A DNA stretch of 19,692 bases from a virus (IMGVR_UViG_2778261637_000010:1-19692), one strand, 5' to 3'. Positions 2,257-19,692 are shown, numbered from the stretch's first letter. Notes: generated by a model not told the origin, from the letters alone. Numbers and translations are program-made.

Positions 2257-2757
2257 TTACGGCTTGAGAAATTCAGAGGCAGCGGAATTCAGAGCGTTAA
2301 TAAATGCTACCTTATGCTTGTATGCATCTAATGCTGTAGCGAATCCGCTTTTTGTGTATTTCTTGCCTTCTACCACAAATTGCCACATGTAGTTATTTGT
2401 GTCCTTGCGATAGGAAACTCCTTTGTATCCAGTTGAATTGTCGCAATCCATGCCACGGTTTAGTCCGTTCAACTGCTTATTGGCATCTCTAAGATTACAG
2501 ATGCGGTTATCAGCACGGTTTCCGTTTATGTGATCTACTGCTTCGGGCCAGTAACCATAGTAGTGCGCAAAACAAATTCTGTGCACGTAGTACAGTTTTT
2601 TACCAAGCCTTACATCAAGGTATCCGTTTCCATGCTGGCACCCAACGGGCTTGCCGTTAAGGTCTGTCCTCCTTGTGCGATTAGCCGCGTACAAAATTCC
2701 GGTTTCAGCATCGTATGTGAAATTTTTCCTTATATCTTCTATAGATGGATGGCTCAC
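2257..2757 (-). CDS. HNH homing endonuclease with C-terminal AP2-type DNA-binding domain, 166 aa
   Basis: HNH_3-type motifs (CQHGNGYLDVRL, YYVHRICFAHYYG, VDHINGNRADNRICNLR) followed by an AP2-like segment (GYKGVSYRKDTNNYMWQFVVEGKKYTKSGFATALDAYKHKVAF). GTG start at 2757 with AGGAG 8 nt upstream. Opposite strand to flanking terminase and portal genes, which are directly adjacent in P22. Confidence 0.7.
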   Translation of the reverse strand: MSHPSIEDIRKNFTYDAETGILYAANRTRRTDLNGKPVGCQHGNGYLDVRLGKKLYYVHRICFAHYYGYWPEAVDHINGNRADNRICNLRDANKQLNGLNRGMDCDNSTGYKGVSYRKDTNNYMWQFVVEGKKYTKSGFATALDAYKHKVAFINALNSAASEFLKP

Positions 2758-2807: not shown

Positions 2808-4976
2808 ATGACTGACAACGCAGAGCGATTAAATAAGATACTGCAAGCATTCGATGTTGATTGGATGTCTTCCGACGAGGCGAGAACAGAAGCTTCTAAC
2901 GATTTATACTTCAGTCGCATAAGCCAATGGGATGACTGGCTATCAAACTACACCACCCTGCAATATCGCGGACAATTCGATGTTGTCCGCCCGGTGGTCA
3001 GGAAGCTGGTCGCAGAGATGCGCCGGAACCCTATCGACGTTCTCTTCCGACCAAAAGACGGTGCTAATCCTGATGCAGCCGATGTATTGATGGGTATGTA
3101 TCGTACTGATATGCGCCATAACACGGCAAAGATTGCCGTTAACGTTGGAGTTCGTGAGCAGATAGAGTCCGGAGTTGGTGCATGGCGTCTGGTCACCCAG
3201 TACGAAGACAACGACCCAACAAGCAACAATCAGGTAATCCGACGCCTTCCAATCCATGAAGCCTGCTCACACGTCATATGGGACGCCAACAGCAAGCAGA
3301 TGGATAAGAGCGACGCTAAGCACTGCACGGTGATTAACGCCTTGTCGCGCAATGGCTGGAAAGAGTTCGCAGAGGATTACGGTATTGATCCTGACACCCT
3401 GCCATCTTTCCAGAATCCGAACGACACATGGCTGTTTCCGTGGGTATCGAATGATGTCGTCTACGTCGCTGAGTATTACGAGGTAGAAGAGAAGAAGGAG
3501 AAAGTCTTCATCTACCGCGACCCGTTGACAGGTGAGCCAGTCAGCTATTACCAGCAGGATATTAAAGACGTTATCGACGACCTGGCTAATCGTGGATTCA
3601 TTAAGGTAGCAGAGCGTAAGGTCAAGCGTCGGCGTGTGTATAAGTCGATCATCACCTGCACGCAGATACTGAAAGACCGCGAGAAGATAGCTGGAGAGCA
3701 TATCCCAATCGTTCCTGTGTACGGCGAATGGTCATTCGCTGGTGACAAGGAGTGCTACGAGGGCGTGGTAAGGCTGACGAAAGACGGTCAACGCCTTCGT
3801 AACATGATCATGTCGTTCAACGCCGATATTGTTGCTCGTTCACCGAAGAAGAAACCGACCTTCTTCCCTGAGCAAATCGAAGGCTACGAATACATGTACG
3901 GTGGAAATGATGACTATCCGTACTATCTGCAGAACAGGACCGATGAAAACGGTAACGACCTGCCGATTGGTCCAATCTCCTACATGGAAAACCCTGAAGT
4001 GCCGCAAGCCAACGCTTACATGCTTGAGGCTGCCACCAACGCAGTGAAAGAAGTGGCTAGTCTTGGCGTGGATGCGCAGGCGGCAAATGGTCAGGTCGCT
4101 TTCGATACCGTCAATCAACTGAACATGCGGGCAGACCTTGAGACATACGTGTTTCAGGATAACCTGGCTACCGCAATGCGACGTGATGGCGAGATTTATG
4201 CCTCAATGGTCAACGATATTTATGACGTTCCTCGTCATGTAACGCTGACACTTGAAGATGGAAGCGAGAAAGACGTTCAACTCTACGCGCAAGTTGTAGA
4301 TTACCAGTCCGGTAATGTGGTCACACTCAACGACATTCGCGGTCGCTATGAGTGCTATACAGACGTTGGGCCATCCTTCCAGAGCATGAAGGAACAGAAC
4401 CGCGCAGAGATTCAGGAATTGCTCACTAAGGTTCCGCAAGGTACTCCAGAGTTCCAGATGCTGATGCTGCAATACTTCACGCTGCTTGACGGTAAAGGCG
4501 TCGAGATGATGCGAGAGTACGCTAACAAGCAACTGGTGATGATGGGGCTGAAGAAACCAGAAACACCTGAAGAGATGGAGATGGTACAGCAGGCTCAACA
4601 GCAGCCGCAGCAGCCATCAGCAGAGCAAATTCAGGCGCAGGGTATCCTTCTGCAAGGTCAGGCTGAATTGCTCAAGGCAGAGAACCAACAGGCGCAGATT
4701 CAGGTTGAGGCCGCCAAGGTTGAAGCCCAAAACCAACTCAACGCCGCGAAGATTGCGGAAATCTTCAACAATATGGACCTCGACAAGCAGGCAGAACTGC
4801 GTGAGTACCTCAAGCTCGTAGGTCAATTCCAGCAACAGCGCAGCAAAGATGCTCGTGCTAACGCTGAGCTGCTTCTTAAAGATGCAGACCAGACTCATTC
4901 ACAACGCATGGATTTCGCGAATCTTATGCGTCAAGTTCAAATCCCCTCCGGCGGAGTAGCCGAGACACCTCAATAA
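2808..4976 (+). CDS. 1: Portal protein (P22 gp1-like), 722 aa
   Basis: 722-aa ORF; long stretches match P22 portal as recalled ([64 protein letters not shown]); Q-rich C-terminal barrel region. Confidence 0.9.
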
Positions 4977-7240: not shown

Positions 7241-7520
<280 letters not shown>

Positions 7521-7543
<23 letters not shown>

Positions 7544-8021
7544 TTTAGTTCTTGCGGCATTACGTAAGCTCGGTGTGGCATCAAATGCCACGTTAACCGA
7601 TGTCGAACCGCAGTCTATGGAAGACGGCGTCAACGACCTTGAAATGATGATGGCGGAATGGCTTGGCGGTGATGCGTCACCAGGTATCAACGTTGGCTAC
7701 ATTTTCGCTGATGCAGATGTCGCTCCAGATCCGGGCGATGAGCACGGTTTATCAAATAACGCTATCAATGCCATCATTTTCAACCTTGCCTGCCGCATTG
7801 CACCGGATTATGCGCTGGAAGCACCTGCAAAACTTATAACCACTGCCAGATACGGGAAAGAGCGACTCGTCAAACTATCTGCAATGGACAGAGCAAAAGC
7901 CGCTAAATGTAAGTCCGGTTATCCAAACCGTATGCCTGTTGGTAGTGGTAACCAGTTGGTGAAGTTGAACGGTTGGAATTACTTCCACCGAAAGGAACCT
8001 TGCGATAACGGGAGCGAATAA
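7521..8021 (+). CDS. 4: Head completion / tail accessory protein (P22 gp4-like), 166 aa
   Basis: ATG at 7521 gives 166 aa (P22 gp4 length) starting [33 protein letters not shown]; the track ORF 7380..8021 is an upstream extension through the repeat. Stop overlaps gp10 start (TAATG). Confidence 0.8.
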
Positions 8022-14701: not shown

Positions 14702-15022
14702 TTAGCGGTTGATGGTTGCTTTTTTCGGGTCATACCATCTCGGCCATTCTTTCAGGAATGGGAATGAGTCGGGAGCGTGGTTCTTTTTGTACGATTTAAG
14801 CAGCCTTAACCGCTCAATCGCACACTCATAAACCTCTTGTTGCCCTGTAGTCATCTCGGTCCATGAAAGGTGATCCATTGATAAGACAACGTTTTCAGCT
14901 TCTTTTATGAGGGCGTTTTTATTTCTCACCGCAGCAGCATGGCTGACAGAGCAATCCTGCCATATTCTTAAAAGCCAAATAGCTAAGCAGATGAAAAAAA
15001 TGGTAGAGAGCGATATGTACAT
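14702..15022 (-). CDS. Hypothetical signal-anchored small membrane protein, 106 aa (accessory cassette gene 3)
   Basis: ATG at 15022 with AAGGAG 6 nt upstream; N-terminal hydrophobic helix (ISLSTIFFICLAIWLLRIW) then soluble domain; stop 8 nt from the convergent gp16 stop; AT-rich. Confidence 0.55.
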   Translation of the reverse strand: MYISLSTIFFICLAIWLLRIWQDCSVSHAAAVRNKNALIKEAENVVLSMDHLSWTEMTTGQQEVYECAIERLRLLKSYKKNHAPDSFPFLKEWPRWYDPKKATINR

Positions 15023-15046
15023 GCCGATCTCCTTAGATTTATCAAT

Positions 15047-15081
15047 GCTGCATGATTTTCAACAGACATCAATCATGCAGC
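15047..15081. promoter_or_regulatory. 11-bp perfect inverted repeat GCTGCATGATT-N13-AATCATGCAGC upstream of the 106-aa ORF
   Basis: Read directly; lies in the 80-bp intergenic gap just upstream (on the minus strand) of the AAGGAG RBS of the 106-aa ORF. Confidence 0.4.
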
Positions 15082-15102
15082 TATAGGTAATAAATCAAGA
15101 AA

Positions 15103-15615
15103 CTATTGAGAACGTTTGTCTTTTTGAGACTCTAATATAGCCAATACCTTATAAAGAGATTGGTTTGTTGAGTCTAATTTTTGATCAGTGTTATCAATCC
15201 TTGACTGTAATACTGATTGGTTGTTTTGGATAGTAGCCATTATCTCTGCCTTACTGGTTTGGATGTTTCCTGTTAGCTCTTGTCGTGATGATTCAACTTT
15301 TTCATCTATAGTGCCTCGAATCGTCCATGTGGCGGCAACGATAGAACCAATGATAGCAACTGCAACCCCGTATAGCTCTAAACGTTTCACGGTATCACGA
15401 CCTTCTTCTTTGTGTTGCTCTTCTTGTAGGCTAAATATTTGTGGTTCCTTTGACGGATTTCTGCCAGTTGGTCTGTAATACTCTGAATATTTAGCGTTTT
15501 CTATTGAACTCCATAACGATTTGTCAAAGTCAAGGTTTTCATGTTGGCTTTGAGCATCTCCATAAATACTAGGTGATTTATTGTGAACATGTTGGTCAAA
15601 CATTATCTCCATCAC
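15103..15615 (-). CDS. Hypothetical single-pass membrane protein with C-terminal coiled-coil-like domain, about 167-170 aa (accessory cassette gene 2)
   Basis: Track ORF starts at GTG 15615; in-frame ATGs at 15612 and 15603 are alternative starts. One predicted TM helix (LELYGVAVAIIGSIVAATWTI, residues about 79-99) preceded by basic residues; C-terminal about 70 aa Q/N/S/T-rich with heptad-like spacing. 5' end overlaps the 3' end of the upstream ORF. Confidence 0.55.
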   Translation of the reverse strand: MMEIMFDQHVHNKSPSIYGDAQSQHENLDFDKSLWSSIENAKYSEYYRPTGRNPSKEPQIFSLQEEQHKEEGRDTVKRLELYGVAVAIIGSIVAATWTIRGTIDEKVESSRQELTGNIQTSKAEIMATIQNNQSVLQSRIDNTDQKLDSTNQSLYKVLAILESQKDKRSQ

Positions 15616-15943
15616 CCTTTACGAATTTTCCAGAAGAGATATTTTCACTAACTTTGTTTAAACTAAAAAAGTGGAAGAAACCGCAAGTGGTGCATTGCAT
15701 GGCTACCATGTTAAGACTATCGTTGCTATAAGTATCTTGATTAACAGGATTATTAGGCAAGCTTTTACCTGGTATGGATGGTCCTATAACTTCAACACCA
15801 TCATCTTTTTTAAGATGCTCCGGTGCTAAAAGAGTCCAGTTTGTATTGCTGCATATTGGGCATACATAAGTTTTTTTGAATGAAGTCAGGTAATTACTAA
15901 AAGACTCAAAAGTAACTTTTAAGTATTGCTCCTTACTGCTCAT
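15596..15943 (-). CDS. Hypothetical CxxC...CxxC (zinc-ribbon-like) protein, 115 aa (accessory cassette gene 1)
   Basis: ATG at 15943 overlaps the mnt stop (TAATG); motifs CPIC and CTTC about 55 residues apart; AT-rich coding sequence. Confidence 0.55.
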   Translation of the reverse strand: MSSKEQYLKVTFESFSNYLTSFKKTYVCPICSNTNWTLLAPEHLKKDDGVEVIGPSIPGKSLPNNPVNQDTYSNDSLNMVAMQCTTCGFFHFFSLNKVSENISSGKFVKGDGDNV

Positions 15944-16182
15944 TATTGGCCTCGAATCTTCTTAAGTACGCTAATTGCAATATCCATTGCTTCCTTCTCT
16001 GTTTTTGTGAGATCTTGAGATGTCGATGGTATGACCTTTTCTCTGTTAATCTTAATCCATAGCTGTATTGCAGCTATGATTTCAGCATTGATAGAGCGCC
16101 TGTTTGTTGCCGCAATGTGAGTAAGCTGCTGCTTGATTTCACTTGGCATTCTTACGTTAAATTGTGGATCGTTTCTAGCCAC
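15943..16182 (-). CDS. mnt: Mnt-like ribbon-helix-helix repressor, 79 aa, GTG start
   Basis: N-terminus MARNDPQFNVRMPSEIKQQL closely resembles P22 Mnt N-terminus (MARDDPHFNFRMP...) as recalled; GTG at 16182 with AGGAG 6 nt upstream; divergent from arc as in P22 immI. Confidence 0.75.
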   Translation of the reverse strand: MARNDPQFNVRMPSEIKQQLTHIAATNRRSINAEIIAAIQLWIKINREKVIPSTSQDLTKTEKEAMDIAISVLKKIRGQ

Positions 16183-16437: not shown

Positions 16438-16440
16438 AGT

Positions 16441-16510
16441 TGAAGCCCCAACTGCGGGAACAGTCAGGGCTTCGGTTGTCGGTAAATTCGTGGAGAAAAA
16501 CCAACATGAA
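16441..16510 (-). ncRNA. sar: Candidate sar-like antisense RNA covering the ant ribosome-binding site
   Basis: P22 makes an approximately 69-nt leftward antisense RNA (sar) from within the start of ant, ending in the arc-ant spacer. Here a hairpin (GAAGCCC 16442-16448 / GGGCTTC 16467-16473, inner ACTG/CAGT) sits about 65 nt left of the ant ATG, and the minus strand has TATACT just inside ant. No convincing -35 element or U-run found. Confidence 0.3.
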
Positions 16511-17441
16511 TAGTATAGCAATTTTAGAAGCAGTGAACACCTCTTACGTGCCTTTCAATGGTCAGCAGATTTTAACCGCTGTGGCTGCCGGAGTGACTTA
16601 TGTAGCGATGCGTCAAATTGTGGAAAACATTGGTATCGACTGGACTGGTCAATCTGTTAAGTTGCGTAAAATGAAGGACAAATTCAACTGTAGAGATATC
16701 TCTATGGTTGCTGCTGATGGCAAGTTACGTAAGCTTTTATGCATCCCGCTGAAGAAGTTAAATGGATGGCTGTTCAGCATCAACCCTGAGAAAGTTCGTG
16801 CTGACATCCGTGATAAACTGATTCAGTACCAGGAAGAATGCTTTAGCGTGCTGCATGACTACTGGACTAAAGGTCATGTAGTTAACCCACGCAAAGCTAA
16901 AAAGGCGTTGCCGGGTAAAATCACCACTGAACAGCAGGAAGCCATTAAACAACTCGTCATGAGTCGCGGTCAGTCTCTGCCAAAGGAAAAACAGGCTAAG
17001 GCGATGATCACCATGTGGTCGTCACTGAAATCTCATTTTGGGTGTTCATACAAAGAAATCAGTGAGGAGCAGTTTGCCGAAGCACTGTCACTTGCAGCTC
17101 GAGTTCCACTTGAAGGCGAGTTCATCGGCAAACAAGAGAAGAAAACCGACGAGCTTTCTGCAAAAGAAGCAAACAGCCTTGTATGGCTATGGGATTATGC
17201 CAACCGCTCACAGGCATTATTCCGCGAACTGTATCCGGCGCTGAAACAAATTCAATCGAACTATTCAGGAAGATGTCATGACTGCGGTTATGAGTTCTCC
17301 CGTATTATCGATATGGCGAGAGACGTTTTAATCAATCACACACGAGATGTTGATATCAATGAGCCAGACGGACCAAAGAATCTTTCCGCATGGATGAGAC
17401 TTAAGAATAAAGAATTACCTCCTTCAGTACATAACTACTGA
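16506..17441 (+). CDS. ant: Antirepressor Ant, 311 aa
   Basis: ATG at 16506 after GGAG (16492-16495); starts [41 protein letters not shown]; position immediately after arc as in P22 immI. Track ORF begins at an upstream TTG (16440) that I reject. Confidence 0.8.
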
Positions 17442-17541: not shown

Positions 17542-19692
17542 ATGACAGACATTACAGCCAATGTGATCGTATCGATGCCTTCGCAACTCTTCACTATGGC
17601 GCGTTCTTTTAAAGCGGTTGCCAATGGCAAAATTTATATCGGAAAAATTGACACTGACCCGGTAAATCCTGAAAACCAGATTCAGGTTTATGTGGAGAAC
17701 GAAGACGGCTCTCATGTTCCCGTTTCGCAACCAATCATCATTAACGCTGCTGGATATCCGGTATATAACGGGCAGATTGCCAAATTCGTAACTGTGCAAG
17801 GCCATTCTATGGCTGTATATGATGCATATGGCACTCAGCAGTTTTATTTTCCTAATGTGCTGAAGTATGACCCTGATCAACTACGGCAGCAATTAGAAGA
17901 CCCGGATGGAGCTAAAAAATATCCTGAATTGCAGATATCTCGGTGGAGGGACGATTGTGATGTAAGAGGGTGGGGGGCAAAAGGCGATGGTATAACAGAT
18001 GACACATCTGCATTGATCTTGGCTGCAGAATATGCACGAGAATCATCCAGAACATTACGAGCGGAAGGTAATTTTATTATTACGGAGACATTAAATCTTC
18101 GTAATGTCAGCCTCGAAATGACCAATGCTGTTTTTACCATATCCCACTCAGGAATAGGGGTATTGCTTGGCGGGAATGCATCAAACCCTAACAACCCAAG
18201 ACAAAACTTCGGAACGATTATCAGAAATTCTGGTATTTCATCTGAAACGACACCGGATATTCGTATTATTGGGGCAAAAGGGCAGCATATAAACATTGAG
18301 CGTTGCGACTACTTACAGTTATATGCAAATTATAATGCTTCGGTGGCATCGACGGATTATTCAATAGCATACTCAACCTTTAACCTGAAAAAGGTCGATA
18401 CAATTCATTTTCTTGGAGTTGAGAACGGATGGATAAATGAAAACTATTTTTATCTGAATCGTACGAATAATATCATTTTCGCTGATAATCCATATCATCA
18501 TAACCACAATAAGTTTTATGGTGGAACTATGGAGGGGGCAGGTAAAATTGATATTCAAAGAGGTGATAACAATTACTTCTACGGGTTTCGTTTTGAACGA
18601 TATCCATCATCCCCAACTAACCAACAGTTGATAATTAACTTTGGTGAATATACGTGGAATAACTCAATTGAGGCTTCATGGTTAAGTTCTCCTTACTATA
18701 CAAATGAACCATACAATCCATCACCTTACACTTATGTAGAGGTAACTGATAATGGCAAGGGGAATGCAGTATTTCATGTTCAGGAAAATATATCCGATGA
18801 AGTAACATTGTTTTCTTTAAATGCTAACACCCCATTTATATCCAGTGCCAACAATGGAGAAGTTGGTGTATTAGCATATCAAACAGATGTAGATGGTTTA
18901 TATAATATCCGTCACCTAGTTTCTTCTAAGTTTGCTTTTATGCGGAATTTTGGGTTGTTATGGGAATCTGGAGATGTACCAGTAAGAAATGGTGATATGT
19001 TTACATTCTCAGCAGATACGGCATCGTTTCGCATTTACCTGTATGCATTAGATGGAGATGGGAATGTCATAACTTCACAAACAGAAGCAATAACTTCTTC
19101 TATGCAATGGGATTCATCTAACCATAGATATGCTACTGTTGCTAACATTTCTTCCATTAAGATCATGATTAATAATGAAGGGGTTCCAGTTAGTGCAATT
19201 CGTTTAGCTGTGTATTCTGGTGGTAATGTAGCGAATACTGCATTTTCATGGCTATGCTTAACTGGTAGATATTACAAAAATAGCACATCCTTACCAAGGA
19301 AAAGCAAAGATAACTTCACCTTAAAACAAGGAAAAGCAATTACTTATTATAGTGATACTGATATTAGTATGGCTAACATTGGTTCAGGAATTACCTGTTA
19401 TAAAACCGATTTATCTGAAATCAAAATTAATCTTGTAAGGGGCAGGTATGTAGTGAAATCAATTTCAGGCAGTGAAATATATGTATACCAAGGAACAGCC
19501 ACTTATTACCCTCCATTCAGTGATGTCAAATTGGTATATACGGATGGGGTTGAAAATAAATTATTAGATGTGCAAAACATCTCTTCAGGAAAGATTACTC
19601 TTGCAGATACAGTACCATCAGCTATATCTGCAGGTGATTTTGTAGATGTTATTGTTACGAAGACGAAGTCTATTTTATCCAGTGCGCCGTAA
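17542..19692 (+). CDS. 9: Tailspike protein, 716 aa: P22 gp9-type N-terminal head-binding domain fused to a divergent right-handed beta-helix receptor-binding domain
   Basis: N-terminal about 112 aa ([46 protein letters not shown]...NVLKYDPDQ) matches the P22 tailspike head-binding domain as recalled; downstream sequence is unrelated to P22 and contains [17 protein letters not shown] typical of pectate-lyase-fold depolymerases; ATG at 17542 after GGAG; TAA at 19690-19692 is the window end. Confidence 0.85.

What the first reader, a model, noticed from the sequence alone, without database searches (positions are those of the whole stretch)
17542..19692. Mosaic tailspike: conserved head-binding domain joined to an AT-rich beta-helix receptor domain
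The first 112 or so residues match the P22 gp9 head-binding domain up to the NVLKYDPDQ junction (about nt 17870-17880). Beyond it the sequence is unrelated to P22, much more AT-rich (about 38% GC in a sampled stretch) and carries [17 protein letters not shown], a hallmark of pectate-lyase-fold polysaccharide depolymerases. This is a classic module swap at the known tailspike recombination joint and implies a different surface-glycan receptor (O-antigen or capsule type) from P22.
Basis: partly seen in the sequence, partly recalled or inferred. Interest (0 to 1): 0.45.

Follow-up and report, generated by a model that had tools for sequence, protein, structure and literature searches.

The report
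Prophage tailspike aimed at chondroitin-type capsule
This is the tailspike gene of a P22-like E. coli prophage: its virion-attachment end is conserved and its receptor-cutting end is swapped, an ordinary kind of mosaic, but the swapped end probably targets K4-type (chondroitin-like) capsules rather than an O-antigen.

Summary
ORF 17542-19692 encodes a 716-aa tailspike. Residues 1-113 are a P22/Sf6-type head-binding domain (Pfam PF09008, E 1e-66). Nothing after residue ~118 resembles P22.

The remainder models as a right-handed beta-helix followed by beta-rich C-terminal domains (AF2 pLDDT ~89-90).

Two refinements. First, the RGWGAKGDG motif lies in a stretch (aa 1-158) that is 93% identical to the CUS-3 endosialidase tailspike, so it marks a second shared joint and is not evidence for the downstream fold. 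Second, GC falls about 400 nt after the head-binding junction, at a further recombination break.

The receptor module also occurs on at least three other N-terminal anchors. It is homologous (31% identity, full length) to Dep-ORF8 of Pasteurella phage PHB02, an experimentally active type-A capsule depolymerase.

Of 15 complete E. coli genomes carrying the module, 14 have a kps locus encoding a KfoC-type chondroitin polymerase (K4 or relatives). The background is 110 of 5426 genomes. Their O-antigen clusters differ.

Best reading: a capsule depolymerase for chondroitin-type K antigens. Whether it is a hydrolase or a lyase is unresolved. It is a new member of a known kind.

The parts
17542..19692 (+). 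Tailspike gene, 716 aa. It is the last gene at this end of a P22-like prophage.
   Evidence: ORF list and translation. The same gene is annotated 'phage head-binding domain-containing protein' in 11 E. coli genomes at 95.6-98.4% identity. It follows ant and precedes intS/argW or torT.
17542..17880 (+). Head-binding (tail-hub-binding) domain, aa 1-113, ending in NVLKYDPDQ.
   Evidence: PF09008 E 1e-66. PDB matches: Sf6 gp14 and P22 gp9 N-terminal domains. 87-94% DNA identity to many P22-like phages over nt 1-338 only.
17881..17964 (+). Helical neck/linker, aa 114-141 ([28 protein letters not shown]). It is shared with tailspikes that carry other catalytic modules and with PF18668-type anchors.
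   Evidence: Model helices 111-138. 93% aa identity to the CUS-3 endosialidase tailspike over aa 1-158. The same linker occurs in the 757-aa PF18668 proteins P0003/P0008.
17965..18015 (+). [17 protein letters not shown], aa 142-158: the N-terminal cap of the beta-helix and the second recombination joint.
   Evidence: The 771-aa proteins of E-1246, fS10a, JNE070796 and S87 become 96-99% identical from gene nt 433. The family profile hits the N-caps of GH55, GH28, alginate epimerases and tailspikes. There is a weak PF12218 End_N_terminal hit.
18016..18831 (+). Right-handed parallel beta-helix body, aa ~159-430. It carries the invariant polar residues R187, Q221, R228, K246, Y277, W297, N299, E300, R307, Y318, H320, N321, N323, E331, N344, R350 and E352, and is the presumed substrate groove and catalytic site.
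   Evidence: AF2 pLDDT >90 with regular strand rungs. Foldseek hits to K2-2 TSP, Dettilon TSP, CBA120 TSP4, DpK2 and Depo32. Conservation across 37 homologues.
18286..18355 (+). Internal break: the GC change point (43% to 35%) coincides with the point where the 20AR0300 tailspike drops from ~100% to 60-80% DNA identity.
   Evidence: Change-point analysis and sliding identity.
18832..19689 (+). Beta-rich C-terminal domains, aa ~431-716, with invariant R497. This part is replaced in some relatives: the 20AR0300 variant is 35-50% aa identical here, and E. marmotae P0009 aligns only to aa 594.
   Evidence: Model secondary structure. Per-segment identities. Only about 13 of 453 representative homologues cover this part.

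Best explanation
This is the tailspike of a P22-like (HK620/Sf6/CUS-3-type) temperate podovirus. By analogy with P22 and Sf6, the protein is expected to form a homotrimer. The N-terminal domain (aa 1-113) docks the spike on the tail hub. A helical neck (aa 114-141) leads into a right-handed beta-helix (aa ~142-430) and C-terminal beta domains (aa ~431-716). Together these bind and cleave a surface polysaccharide, so the virion can work its way down to the outer membrane.

The receptor module was acquired by recombination at conserved joints. One joint is the end of the head-binding domain. Another is the GAKGDGxTDDT cap motif. The same module circulates among several phage types.

The most likely substrate is the group 2 capsule made by KfoC-type chondroitin polymerases, i.e. 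K4 and related K loci with a GlcA-HexNAc backbone. It is probably not an O-antigen.

What is shown: domain identities, mosaic boundaries, predicted fold, homology to an experimentally active capsule depolymerase, and the host-capsule association. What is inferred: trimer formation, enzymatic activity, the substrate, and the chemistry. On chemistry I lean slightly towards an endo-glycosidase using the invariant carboxylates E300/E331/E352 (about 55%). The alternative is a beta-eliminating lyase using K246/R228/H320/Y318, with the Glu/Asn residues neutralising charge (about 40%).
For: Head-binding domain.

P22-like context: terminase, portal, coat, gp4, gp16, Arc and ant lie upstream, and the window is ~95% identical to phages Louie, APC_JM3.2 and IME10 up to nt 17873-17879.

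Beta-helix fold: AF2 pLDDT 81 for the full protein and 89 for the receptor part, with tailspike depolymerases as best structural matches.

Module mobility: the same receptor part (91-98% aa identity) is fused to a 192-residue unrelated N-terminus (771-aa proteins), to PF18668 Tail_spike_N (757 aa), and at 42-48% to PF12571 and short Vectrevirus-type anchors.

Homology to an active enzyme: 31% identity over aa 133-711 to PHB02 gp17. That protein has the size of Dep-ORF8, which cleared lawns of all 31 type-A P. multocida strains tested but not capsule mutants (PMC6090149). phrog_18162 matches at 1016 bits.

Host association: 14 of 15 complete genomes with the module carry a kps region 2 with a KfoC homologue. 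Nine have one locus at >=99.9% identity that occurs in only 18 of 5426 genomes. Two have true K4, two have an 87%-identical variant, and one (S87) has a KfoC-like gene at 56%. Background is 110 of 5426 (hypergeometric 1e-23, not corrected for clonality).

O-antigen clusters differ among carriers: O166 versus an rml/wecB type, with the same tailspike allele in both.

Independence: carriers have the module in P22-like prophages at two attachment sites and in an unrelated prophage.

Diverged relatives: the tailspike variants of 20AR0300 and N1131 also sit in KfoC-type hosts.
Against: No enzymatic or adsorption data exist for this protein.

One carrier (W46) has an unrelated, glycerophosphotransferase-type kps locus.

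The association is among lysogens, which are partly clonal, and the K type of the window's own host is unknown.

The PHB02 relative is only 31% identical, and its substrate was not chemically defined in the paper.

No solved chondroitinase or hyaluronidase family appears among sequence or fold matches, and fold matches are weak (TM 0.2-0.33).

Pfam PF12708 is not detected in the protein itself.
Confidence: 0.7

Rival explanations
1. An O-antigen-specific tailspike, as in P22, Sf6 and HK620. On this view the beta-helix cleaves the O-polysaccharide of the lysogen's LPS, and the capsule association is a by-product of lineage structure.
For: Most characterised P22-like tailspikes are O-antigen endoglycosidases (established knowledge; structures matched). 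Three carriers (E200086, 100117, 100248) share a rare O-antigen polymerase found in only 13 of 5426 genomes.
Against: The same allele (identical score, 95.6% to the window) occurs in O166 strains AST240/AST20 and in the rml/wecB-type strains 100117/100248, whose O clusters have unrelated gene content. The only functionally tested relative acts on a capsule. No O-antigen-modifying genes follow the tailspike.
Confidence: 0.15
2. A spike that targets some other widely shared glycan (colanic acid, ECA, or a KfoG/GT446-made side structure), or that binds without cleaving.
For: All carriers examined have colanic acid clusters. The most conserved shared kps genes among carriers are the UDP-glucose dehydrogenase and the 446-aa glycosyltransferase (94-98% aa), not KfoC itself (56-74%). 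phrog_8280, annotated 'colanic acid degradation', matches, but only aa 1-202.
Against: A ubiquitous receptor would not produce 14 of 15 carriers in a 2% capsule class. The phrog_8280 match covers only the shared N-terminal part. Invariant carboxylates and basic residues line the helix in all 37 homologues, as expected for an active enzyme.
Confidence: 0.1
3. A decaying prophage remnant whose tailspike no longer functions, in which case receptor inference from hosts would be meaningless.
For: The window ends at the stop codon, so the prophage end is not visible. Some relatives sit beside IS elements and a CTX-M-15 insertion.
Against: The ORF is intact. It is identical on 16 contigs and 95.6-98.4% conserved in 11 genomes without frameshifts. 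The full set of P22-type structural genes lies upstream.
Confidence: 0.05

Closest known systems
P22 gp9 / Sf6 gp14 / HK620 gp9 tailspikes (P22-like podoviruses)
   Same: N-terminal head-binding domain (PF09008; 94% identical to Sf6 gp14 and ~70% to P22 gp9 over aa 1-117), the same genome position after ant, and a predicted right-handed beta-helix body.
   Different: No sequence similarity after aa ~118. Those are O-antigen endoglycosidases, whereas host typing here points to a capsule. Fold matches to them are weak.
CUS-3 endosialidase tailspike (K1-specific P22-like prophage at argW)
   Same: 93% aa identity over aa 1-158, including the neck and the GAxGDGxxDDTSAL motif. Both are prophages of encapsulated E. 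coli whose spike is aimed at the host's group 2 capsule, and some copies use the same argW/intS site.
   Different: After aa 158 CUS-3 continues into an endosialidase with no similarity. Here there is a beta-helix of the PHB02 type, and no capsule-modifying gene such as neuO lies downstream.
Dep-ORF8 (gp17) of Pasteurella phage PHB02 and relatives in Pmp1, ZA29, Pa7 and F108 (phrog_18162)
   Same: Homologous over the whole receptor part (aa 133-711; 31% identity, tblastn E 1e-69 to 5e-71). The best viral fold match is F108 (E 4e-15). The substrate class is the same: PHB02 acts on the type-A capsule, which is hyaluronan (GlcA-GlcNAc) by established knowledge, against chondroitin-type GlcA-GalNAc here.
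   Different: Different N-terminal anchors (T7-like gp17 against P22 head-binding), different host family, low identity, and exact linkage specificity unknown for both.
Pectate-lyase-fold depolymerases (Pfam PF12708, Pect-lyase_RHGA_epim)
   Same: The N-terminal cap motif and a right-handed beta-helix. Homologues P0035 and P0010 hit PF12708 (E 2e-15 and 3.5e-4), and the family profile hits GH28, GH55 and AlgE caps.
   Different: The window protein itself gives no PF12708 hit, and similarity is confined to the first ~50 residues of the helix.

Membership tests
P22-type tailspike (PF09008 head-binding family) | N-terminal head-binding domain above Pfam's gathering score | tested here: met
   222.6 bits against a cut-off of 24, covering profile 1-113 of 113. 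Matches the solved Sf6 and P22 N-domains.
P22-type tailspike (PF09008 head-binding family) | Gene position at the end of the virion module, after the immI (arc/ant) region of a P22-like genome | tested here: met
   Arc at 15943-16182, ant at 16440-17441, tailspike at 17542. P22-type gp4, gp16, portal and terminase lie upstream. Integrase or bacterial genes lie downstream in relatives.
P22-type tailspike (PF09008 head-binding family) | Right-handed parallel beta-helix receptor domain | tested here: met
   Prediction only: AF2 pLDDT >90 across aa 140-430, with Foldseek best hits to tailspike beta-helices.
P22-type tailspike (PF09008 head-binding family) | Homotrimer with endoglycanase activity | not testable with these tools
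   Only monomer prediction is available, and no biochemistry.
P22 gp9 endorhamnosidase catalytic module | Sequence similarity of the receptor domain to P22 gp9 residues ~120-666 | tested here: not met
   Alignments to 2xc1, 8tvr and 5gai stop at residue 116-117.
Pfam PF12708 Pect-lyase_RHGA_epim | Match above the gathering score (27 bits) | tested here: not met
   No PF12708 hit at E<=0.1 on the full protein or E<=10 on aa 131-430. Only homologues P0035 (57.7 bits) and P0010 (20.9 bits) hit it.
PHB02 Dep-ORF8-like capsule depolymerase module (phrog_18162) | Full-length homology of the receptor module | tested here: met
   phrog_18162 at 1016 bits over aa 135-712. PHB02 gp17 is 30.8% identical over aa 133-711. 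tblastn E 1e-69 to 5e-71.
PHB02 Dep-ORF8-like capsule depolymerase module (phrog_18162) | Capsule-specific depolymerase activity | not testable with these tools
   Shown for Dep-ORF8 only (PMC6090149). Here it is inferred from the host kps association.
Endosialidase tailspikes (CUS-3, K1F type) | Sialidase catalytic domain after the N-terminal extension | tested here: not met
   Identity to CUS-3 falls to background after aa 158. Only a 12-bit PF12218 hit on the motif.
Known chondroitin/hyaluronan-degrading enzyme families (PL6, PL8, PL16 HylP, GH56 and others) | Sequence or fold similarity to a solved member | tested here: not met
   None appears among PDB sequence hits or among the 50 best Foldseek hits listed for either model.

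The most novel reading that the evidence does not exclude
The receptor module and its Pasteurella relatives may form an undescribed family of phage-borne beta-helix enzymes that cleave glycosaminoglycan-like capsule backbones: hyaluronan in P. multocida type A, and chondroitin-type K4 and related K antigens in E. coli. On this reading the present protein would be the first identified tailspike specific for K4-type capsules, with a catalytic centre unrelated to the known chondroitinase and hyaluronidase families.
Probability: 0.45. Interest if true: 0.6.

Novelty: new member of a known kind. Interest (0 to 1): 0.38.

Why it matters
Modular tailspikes are textbook, so the mosaic itself is ordinary.

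The added value is a concrete, testable receptor assignment. If the module cleaves chondroitin-type capsules, it would be useful in several ways. It would give a typing and decapsulation reagent for K4 and related K loci, which occur in ExPEC and in diarrhoeagenic O166:H15-type strains. It would give a candidate enzyme for making defined chondroitin oligosaccharides. It would also provide a second example, besides CUS-3 and K1, of a P22-like prophage tuned to its host's group 2 capsule.

The locus also illustrates that tailspike exchange uses several nested joints, not only the head-binding boundary.

Tried and rejected
1. Full-length megablast against 50,697 phage records: only the first 338-470 nt match, and no phage record has the receptor part at the DNA level.

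2. NCBIfam: no family. Pfam on the split receptor part: only noise-level hits.

3. O-antigen as the shared receptor: rejected after finding two unrelated O clusters under the same tailspike allele.

4. Fold searches to separate hydrolase from lyase: both the full and the receptor-only models gave only fold-level matches (TM 0.2-0.33) to hydrolases, lyases and epimerases alike.

5. Literature: searches found nothing on phage PDP21P3/P6 and no paper describing a K4- or chondroitin-specific phage spike. Several searches failed on the 3-character rule for 'K4'. I could not name the K4-like loci in the kTYPr paper.

6. The first guess for the AST240 O-antigen position was wrong, because that prophage sits at a different site.

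7. The CUS-3 'bsq1 boundary sequence' proved to lie upstream of the gene, not at the internal joint.

Full report
**What is there**

The interval 17542-19692 is one intact ORF on the + strand: ATG start, 716 codons, with the stop as the last three bases of the window.

The window upstream is the virion module of a P22-like temperate podovirus:
- large terminase at 745-2247
- portal at 2808-4976
- scaffold and coat
- P22 gp4-type tail accessory factor at 7380-8021
- ejection proteins
- an Arc repressor at 15943-16182 (minus strand)
- a P22-type antirepressor at 16440-17441

The window is about 95% identical to phages Louie, APC_JM3.2 and IME10. In every case the similarity stops at window nt 17873-17879.

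In E. coli genomes the gene is the last prophage gene. It is followed by intS and tRNA-Arg (argW) in E200086 and 20AR0300. In the contigs that carry the exact window protein it is followed by torT/torR/torC.

**Checking the observation**

Residues 1-113 match Pfam PF09008 (Head_binding) end to end (E 1e-66). They align to the solved N-terminal domains of Sf6 gp14 (aa 1-118, E 6e-65) and P22 gp9 (aa 1-117, E 7e-51). No alignment continues beyond that.

NVLKYDPDQ is aa 105-113 (nt 17854-17880). The motif [17 protein letters not shown] is aa 142-158. Megablast against phage genomes finds only gene nt 1-338, or at most 1-470. The head-binding claim and the 'unrelated to P22' claim are therefore correct.

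The composition claim is correct in direction but not in position:

| Segment | GC |
|---|---|
| Whole window | 47.2% |
| Structural genes | ~50% |
| Head-binding part (gene nt 1-339) | 43.1% |
| Gene nt 340-470 | 48.1% |
| Gene nt 471-750 | 40.7% |
| Gene nt 751-2151 | ~35% (GC3 down to 0.25) |

The likelihood change point is at gene nt 745-814.

**The mosaic has several joints**

- Joint 1 is the end of the head-binding domain.
- Joint 2 lies at or just before the GAKGDG motif. Four genomes (E-1246, fS10a, O166:H15 JNE070796, S87) have a 771-aa protein in a different prophage, next to a holin/GH19 endolysin cassette. It is unrelated over its first 192 residues and 96-99% identical from gene nt 433 onward.
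- Proteins of 757 aa with a PF18668 Tail_spike_N anchor share the neck and everything after it at 91-94%.
- Conversely, the CUS-3 endosialidase tailspike is 93% identical over aa 1-158, motif included, and unrelated afterwards.

A faint PF12218 'endosialidase N-terminal extension' hit falls on the same residues.

- Joint 3 coincides with the GC change point. The 20AR0300 tailspike is ~100% identical up to gene nt ~750 and 60-80% from there to ~1300. Over the rest DNA identity is roughly 45-65% (35-50% at the protein level).
- The C-terminal part (aa ~431-716) is also separable. E. marmotae P0009 aligns only to aa 594. Only about 13 of 453 representative homologues cover the whole receptor part.

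**Fold**

AlphaFold2 with a 41-sequence alignment gives pLDDT 81 overall and above 90 for most of aa 140-716. A receptor-only model reaches 89.3. The head-binding domain is poorly modelled as a monomer (27-55).

The model shows the following elements:
- a helical neck (aa 111-138)
- a capping helix (aa 155-168)
- regular three-strand rungs to aa ~430
- beta-rich C-terminal domains

Foldseek returns tailspike depolymerases: Klebsiella K2-2 TSP, Dettilon gp208, CBA120 TSP4, DpK2, Depo32, Phi92 colanidase and Sf6 TSP. These come at E 1e-7 to 1e-4 but with TM only 0.2-0.33. The best viral match is a Pasteurella phage F108 protein (E 4e-15).

A profile of the family matches the N-terminal cap of many solved beta-helix enzymes (GH55, GH28, alginate epimerases, CBA120 TSP3, phiAB6 TSP). 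PF12708 itself is not detected on this protein.

**Relatives with known function**

tblastn against phage genomes finds the whole receptor part in the following:
- unannotated Vectrevirus genomes PDP21P3/P6 (48%)
- Pasteurella multocida phages PHB02, Pmp1, ZA29, Pa7 and F108 (30-34%)
- Vibrio phages (partial, 28%)

PHROGs places aa 135-712 in phrog_18162 (1016 bits).

The PHB02 hit is gp17, the 968-aa tail fibre. Its size agrees with Dep-ORF8 (109.6 kDa). Recombinant Dep-ORF8 produced translucent spots on all 31 capsular type A strains and not on capsule-deficient mutants (PMC6090149). The type A capsule of P. multocida is hyaluronan (established knowledge, not stated in that paper).

**What the spike is probably aimed at**

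Fifteen complete E. coli genomes carry the receptor module at 95.6% identity or more.

Their O-antigen clusters are not the same:
- E200086, 100117 and 100248 have an rmlBDAC-wzx-wecB-type cluster whose polymerase occurs in 13 of 5426 genomes.
- AST240, AST20 and JNE070796 are O166.
- The very same tailspike allele occurs in both groups.

Their capsule loci, in contrast, agree. The kps region 2 of AST240 encodes the following:
- a GalE/KfoA-like epimerase
- a coiled-coil protein
- a 689-aa GT2 that matches the solved E. coli K4 chondroitin polymerase KfoC (PDB 2z86, 1129 bits) and is 73.5% identical to the K4 enzyme of 23CRST013
- a UDP-glucose dehydrogenase
- a 446-aa glycosyltransferase

| kps region 2 type | Frequency in 5426 genomes | Carriers of the module |
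|---|---|---|
| AST240-type locus at >=99.9% identity | 18 | 9 (AST240, AST20, JNE070796, E-1246, PS_131_S11, fS10a, E200086, 100117, 100248) |
| 87%-identical variant with an added pyruvyl transferase | 27 | EC11, MS14385; also 20AR0300 and N1131, which carry diverged versions of the spike |
| True K4 gene order, KfoC scoring 1455 bits against 2z86 | 20 | 23CRST013, PEC011 |
| KfoC-like gene at 56% identity, with the same dehydrogenase and 446-aa transferase | not counted | S87 |
| Unrelated glycerophosphotransferase-type locus | not counted | W46 |

Thus 14 of 15 carriers belong to a capsule class found in at most 110 of 5426 genomes (nominal hypergeometric P 1e-23). That figure overstates independence because some carriers are clonal. 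Even so, the carriers span several O types, two phage backbones and three integration sites.

KfoC polymerises the GalNAc-GlcA chondroitin backbone of K4 (PMC7764085 abstract). This differs from hyaluronan only in the hexosamine epimer, which fits the homology to a type A Pasteurella depolymerase.

**Mechanism**

Shown here:
- domain identities
- joints
- predicted fold
- homology to an active capsule depolymerase
- host association

Inferred by analogy with P22, Sf6 and CUS-3: the protein trimerises, docks on the tail hub through aa 1-113, and uses the groove of the beta-helix to bind and cut capsule chains. This lets the virion descend to the outer membrane.

Across 37 homologues the following residues are invariant or nearly so: R187, Q221, R228, K246, Q248, S274, Y277, S278, W297, N299, E300, N301, R307, Y318, H320, N321, N323, E331, N344, R350, E352, N374, D403, N408, and R497 in the C-terminal part. 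The many basic residues suit a polyanionic, uronic-acid substrate.

Three invariant glutamates fit a glycoside hydrolase. A conserved Lys/Arg/His/Tyr set with Glu/Asn would equally fit a beta-eliminating lyase. Fold matches include both classes, and I could not inspect coordinates. I lean slightly to a hydrolase, but this step is open.

**Rivals**

- An O-antigen spike is the default for P22-like phages. It conflicts with the same allele sitting under unrelated O clusters.
- A ubiquitous glycan receptor would not give the capsule association.
- A dead prophage remnant is unlikely given the intact and widely conserved ORF and the complete virion module.

**Comparison and novelty**

In kind this is a standard modular tailspike. 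Its closest analogue in biology is CUS-3, a P22-like prophage of encapsulated E. coli whose spike is specific for the host's group 2 capsule, and with which it shares the first 158 residues.

In sequence the receptor part belongs with the PHB02 Dep-ORF8 group, for which no structure or reaction chemistry is known. I found no paper describing a phage spike for K4 or chondroitin-type capsules in the searchable library, but that library is incomplete.

I therefore rate it a new member of a known kind with a specific, testable and moderately interesting receptor prediction.

Noticed in passing
window 2257-2757 (- strand): A 166-aa HNH endonuclease ORF (PF13392 E 2e-13; phrog_99 E 5e-50) lies antisense in a 560-nt gap between the large terminase (745-2247) and portal (2808-4976) genes. 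It looks like a homing-endonuclease-type insertion in the packaging module.
   Followed up: partly
window 14702-15943 (- strand): Three small AT-rich ORFs of unknown function (phrog_10450, phrog_24865, phrog_4293; GC 0.34-0.43) occupy the slot between ejection protein gp16 and the Arc/ant immI region. In the related prophage of 20AR0300 the same slot holds a Rap1a/Tai immunity protein (L004 2115-2450), so this is a variable moron slot.
   Followed up: partly
L017-L020 (6731-10151) versus L001 (8462-9855): The exact window tailspike lies at a prophage end abutting torT/torR/torC/torA on four independent contigs. Copies 98% identical sit next to intS and tRNA-Arg (argW). So the same spike rides on P22-like prophages at two attachment sites.
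   Followed up: no
L013 1365-9477; L014 196-13642; L016 7094-13638: E. coli has a family of K4-related kps region 2 loci. One is a short five-gene form (18 genomes). One is an 87%-identical form with a pyruvyl transferase (27 genomes). True K4 occurs in 20 genomes. S87 has a form without an epimerase, whose KfoC homologue is only 56% identical. The UDP-glucose dehydrogenase and the 446-aa glycosyltransferase stay 94-98% identical across all of them.
   Followed up: partly
L015 14674-20124 (E. coli W46): W46 carries the tailspike at 96.2% identity but has a glycerophosphotransferase-type kps region 2. It is the single exception among the 15 carriers. A possible explanation is capsule switching after lysogeny.
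   Followed up: no
L002 1-3800 (E. coli E-1246): In E-1246 the prophage that carries the 771-aa version of the spike is interrupted by an ISEcp1-blaCTX-M-15 unit and a Tn3 fragment a few kb upstream of the spike gene.
   Followed up: no
L005 4001-5710 (Vectrevirus PDP21P6, unannotated): A lytic K1E/K1-5-type podovirus genome encodes a 48%-identical copy of the whole receptor module on a short (~30 aa) adaptor-type N-terminus. The module therefore also circulates in virulent Autographiviridae. The host of that phage is not recorded.
   Followed up: no
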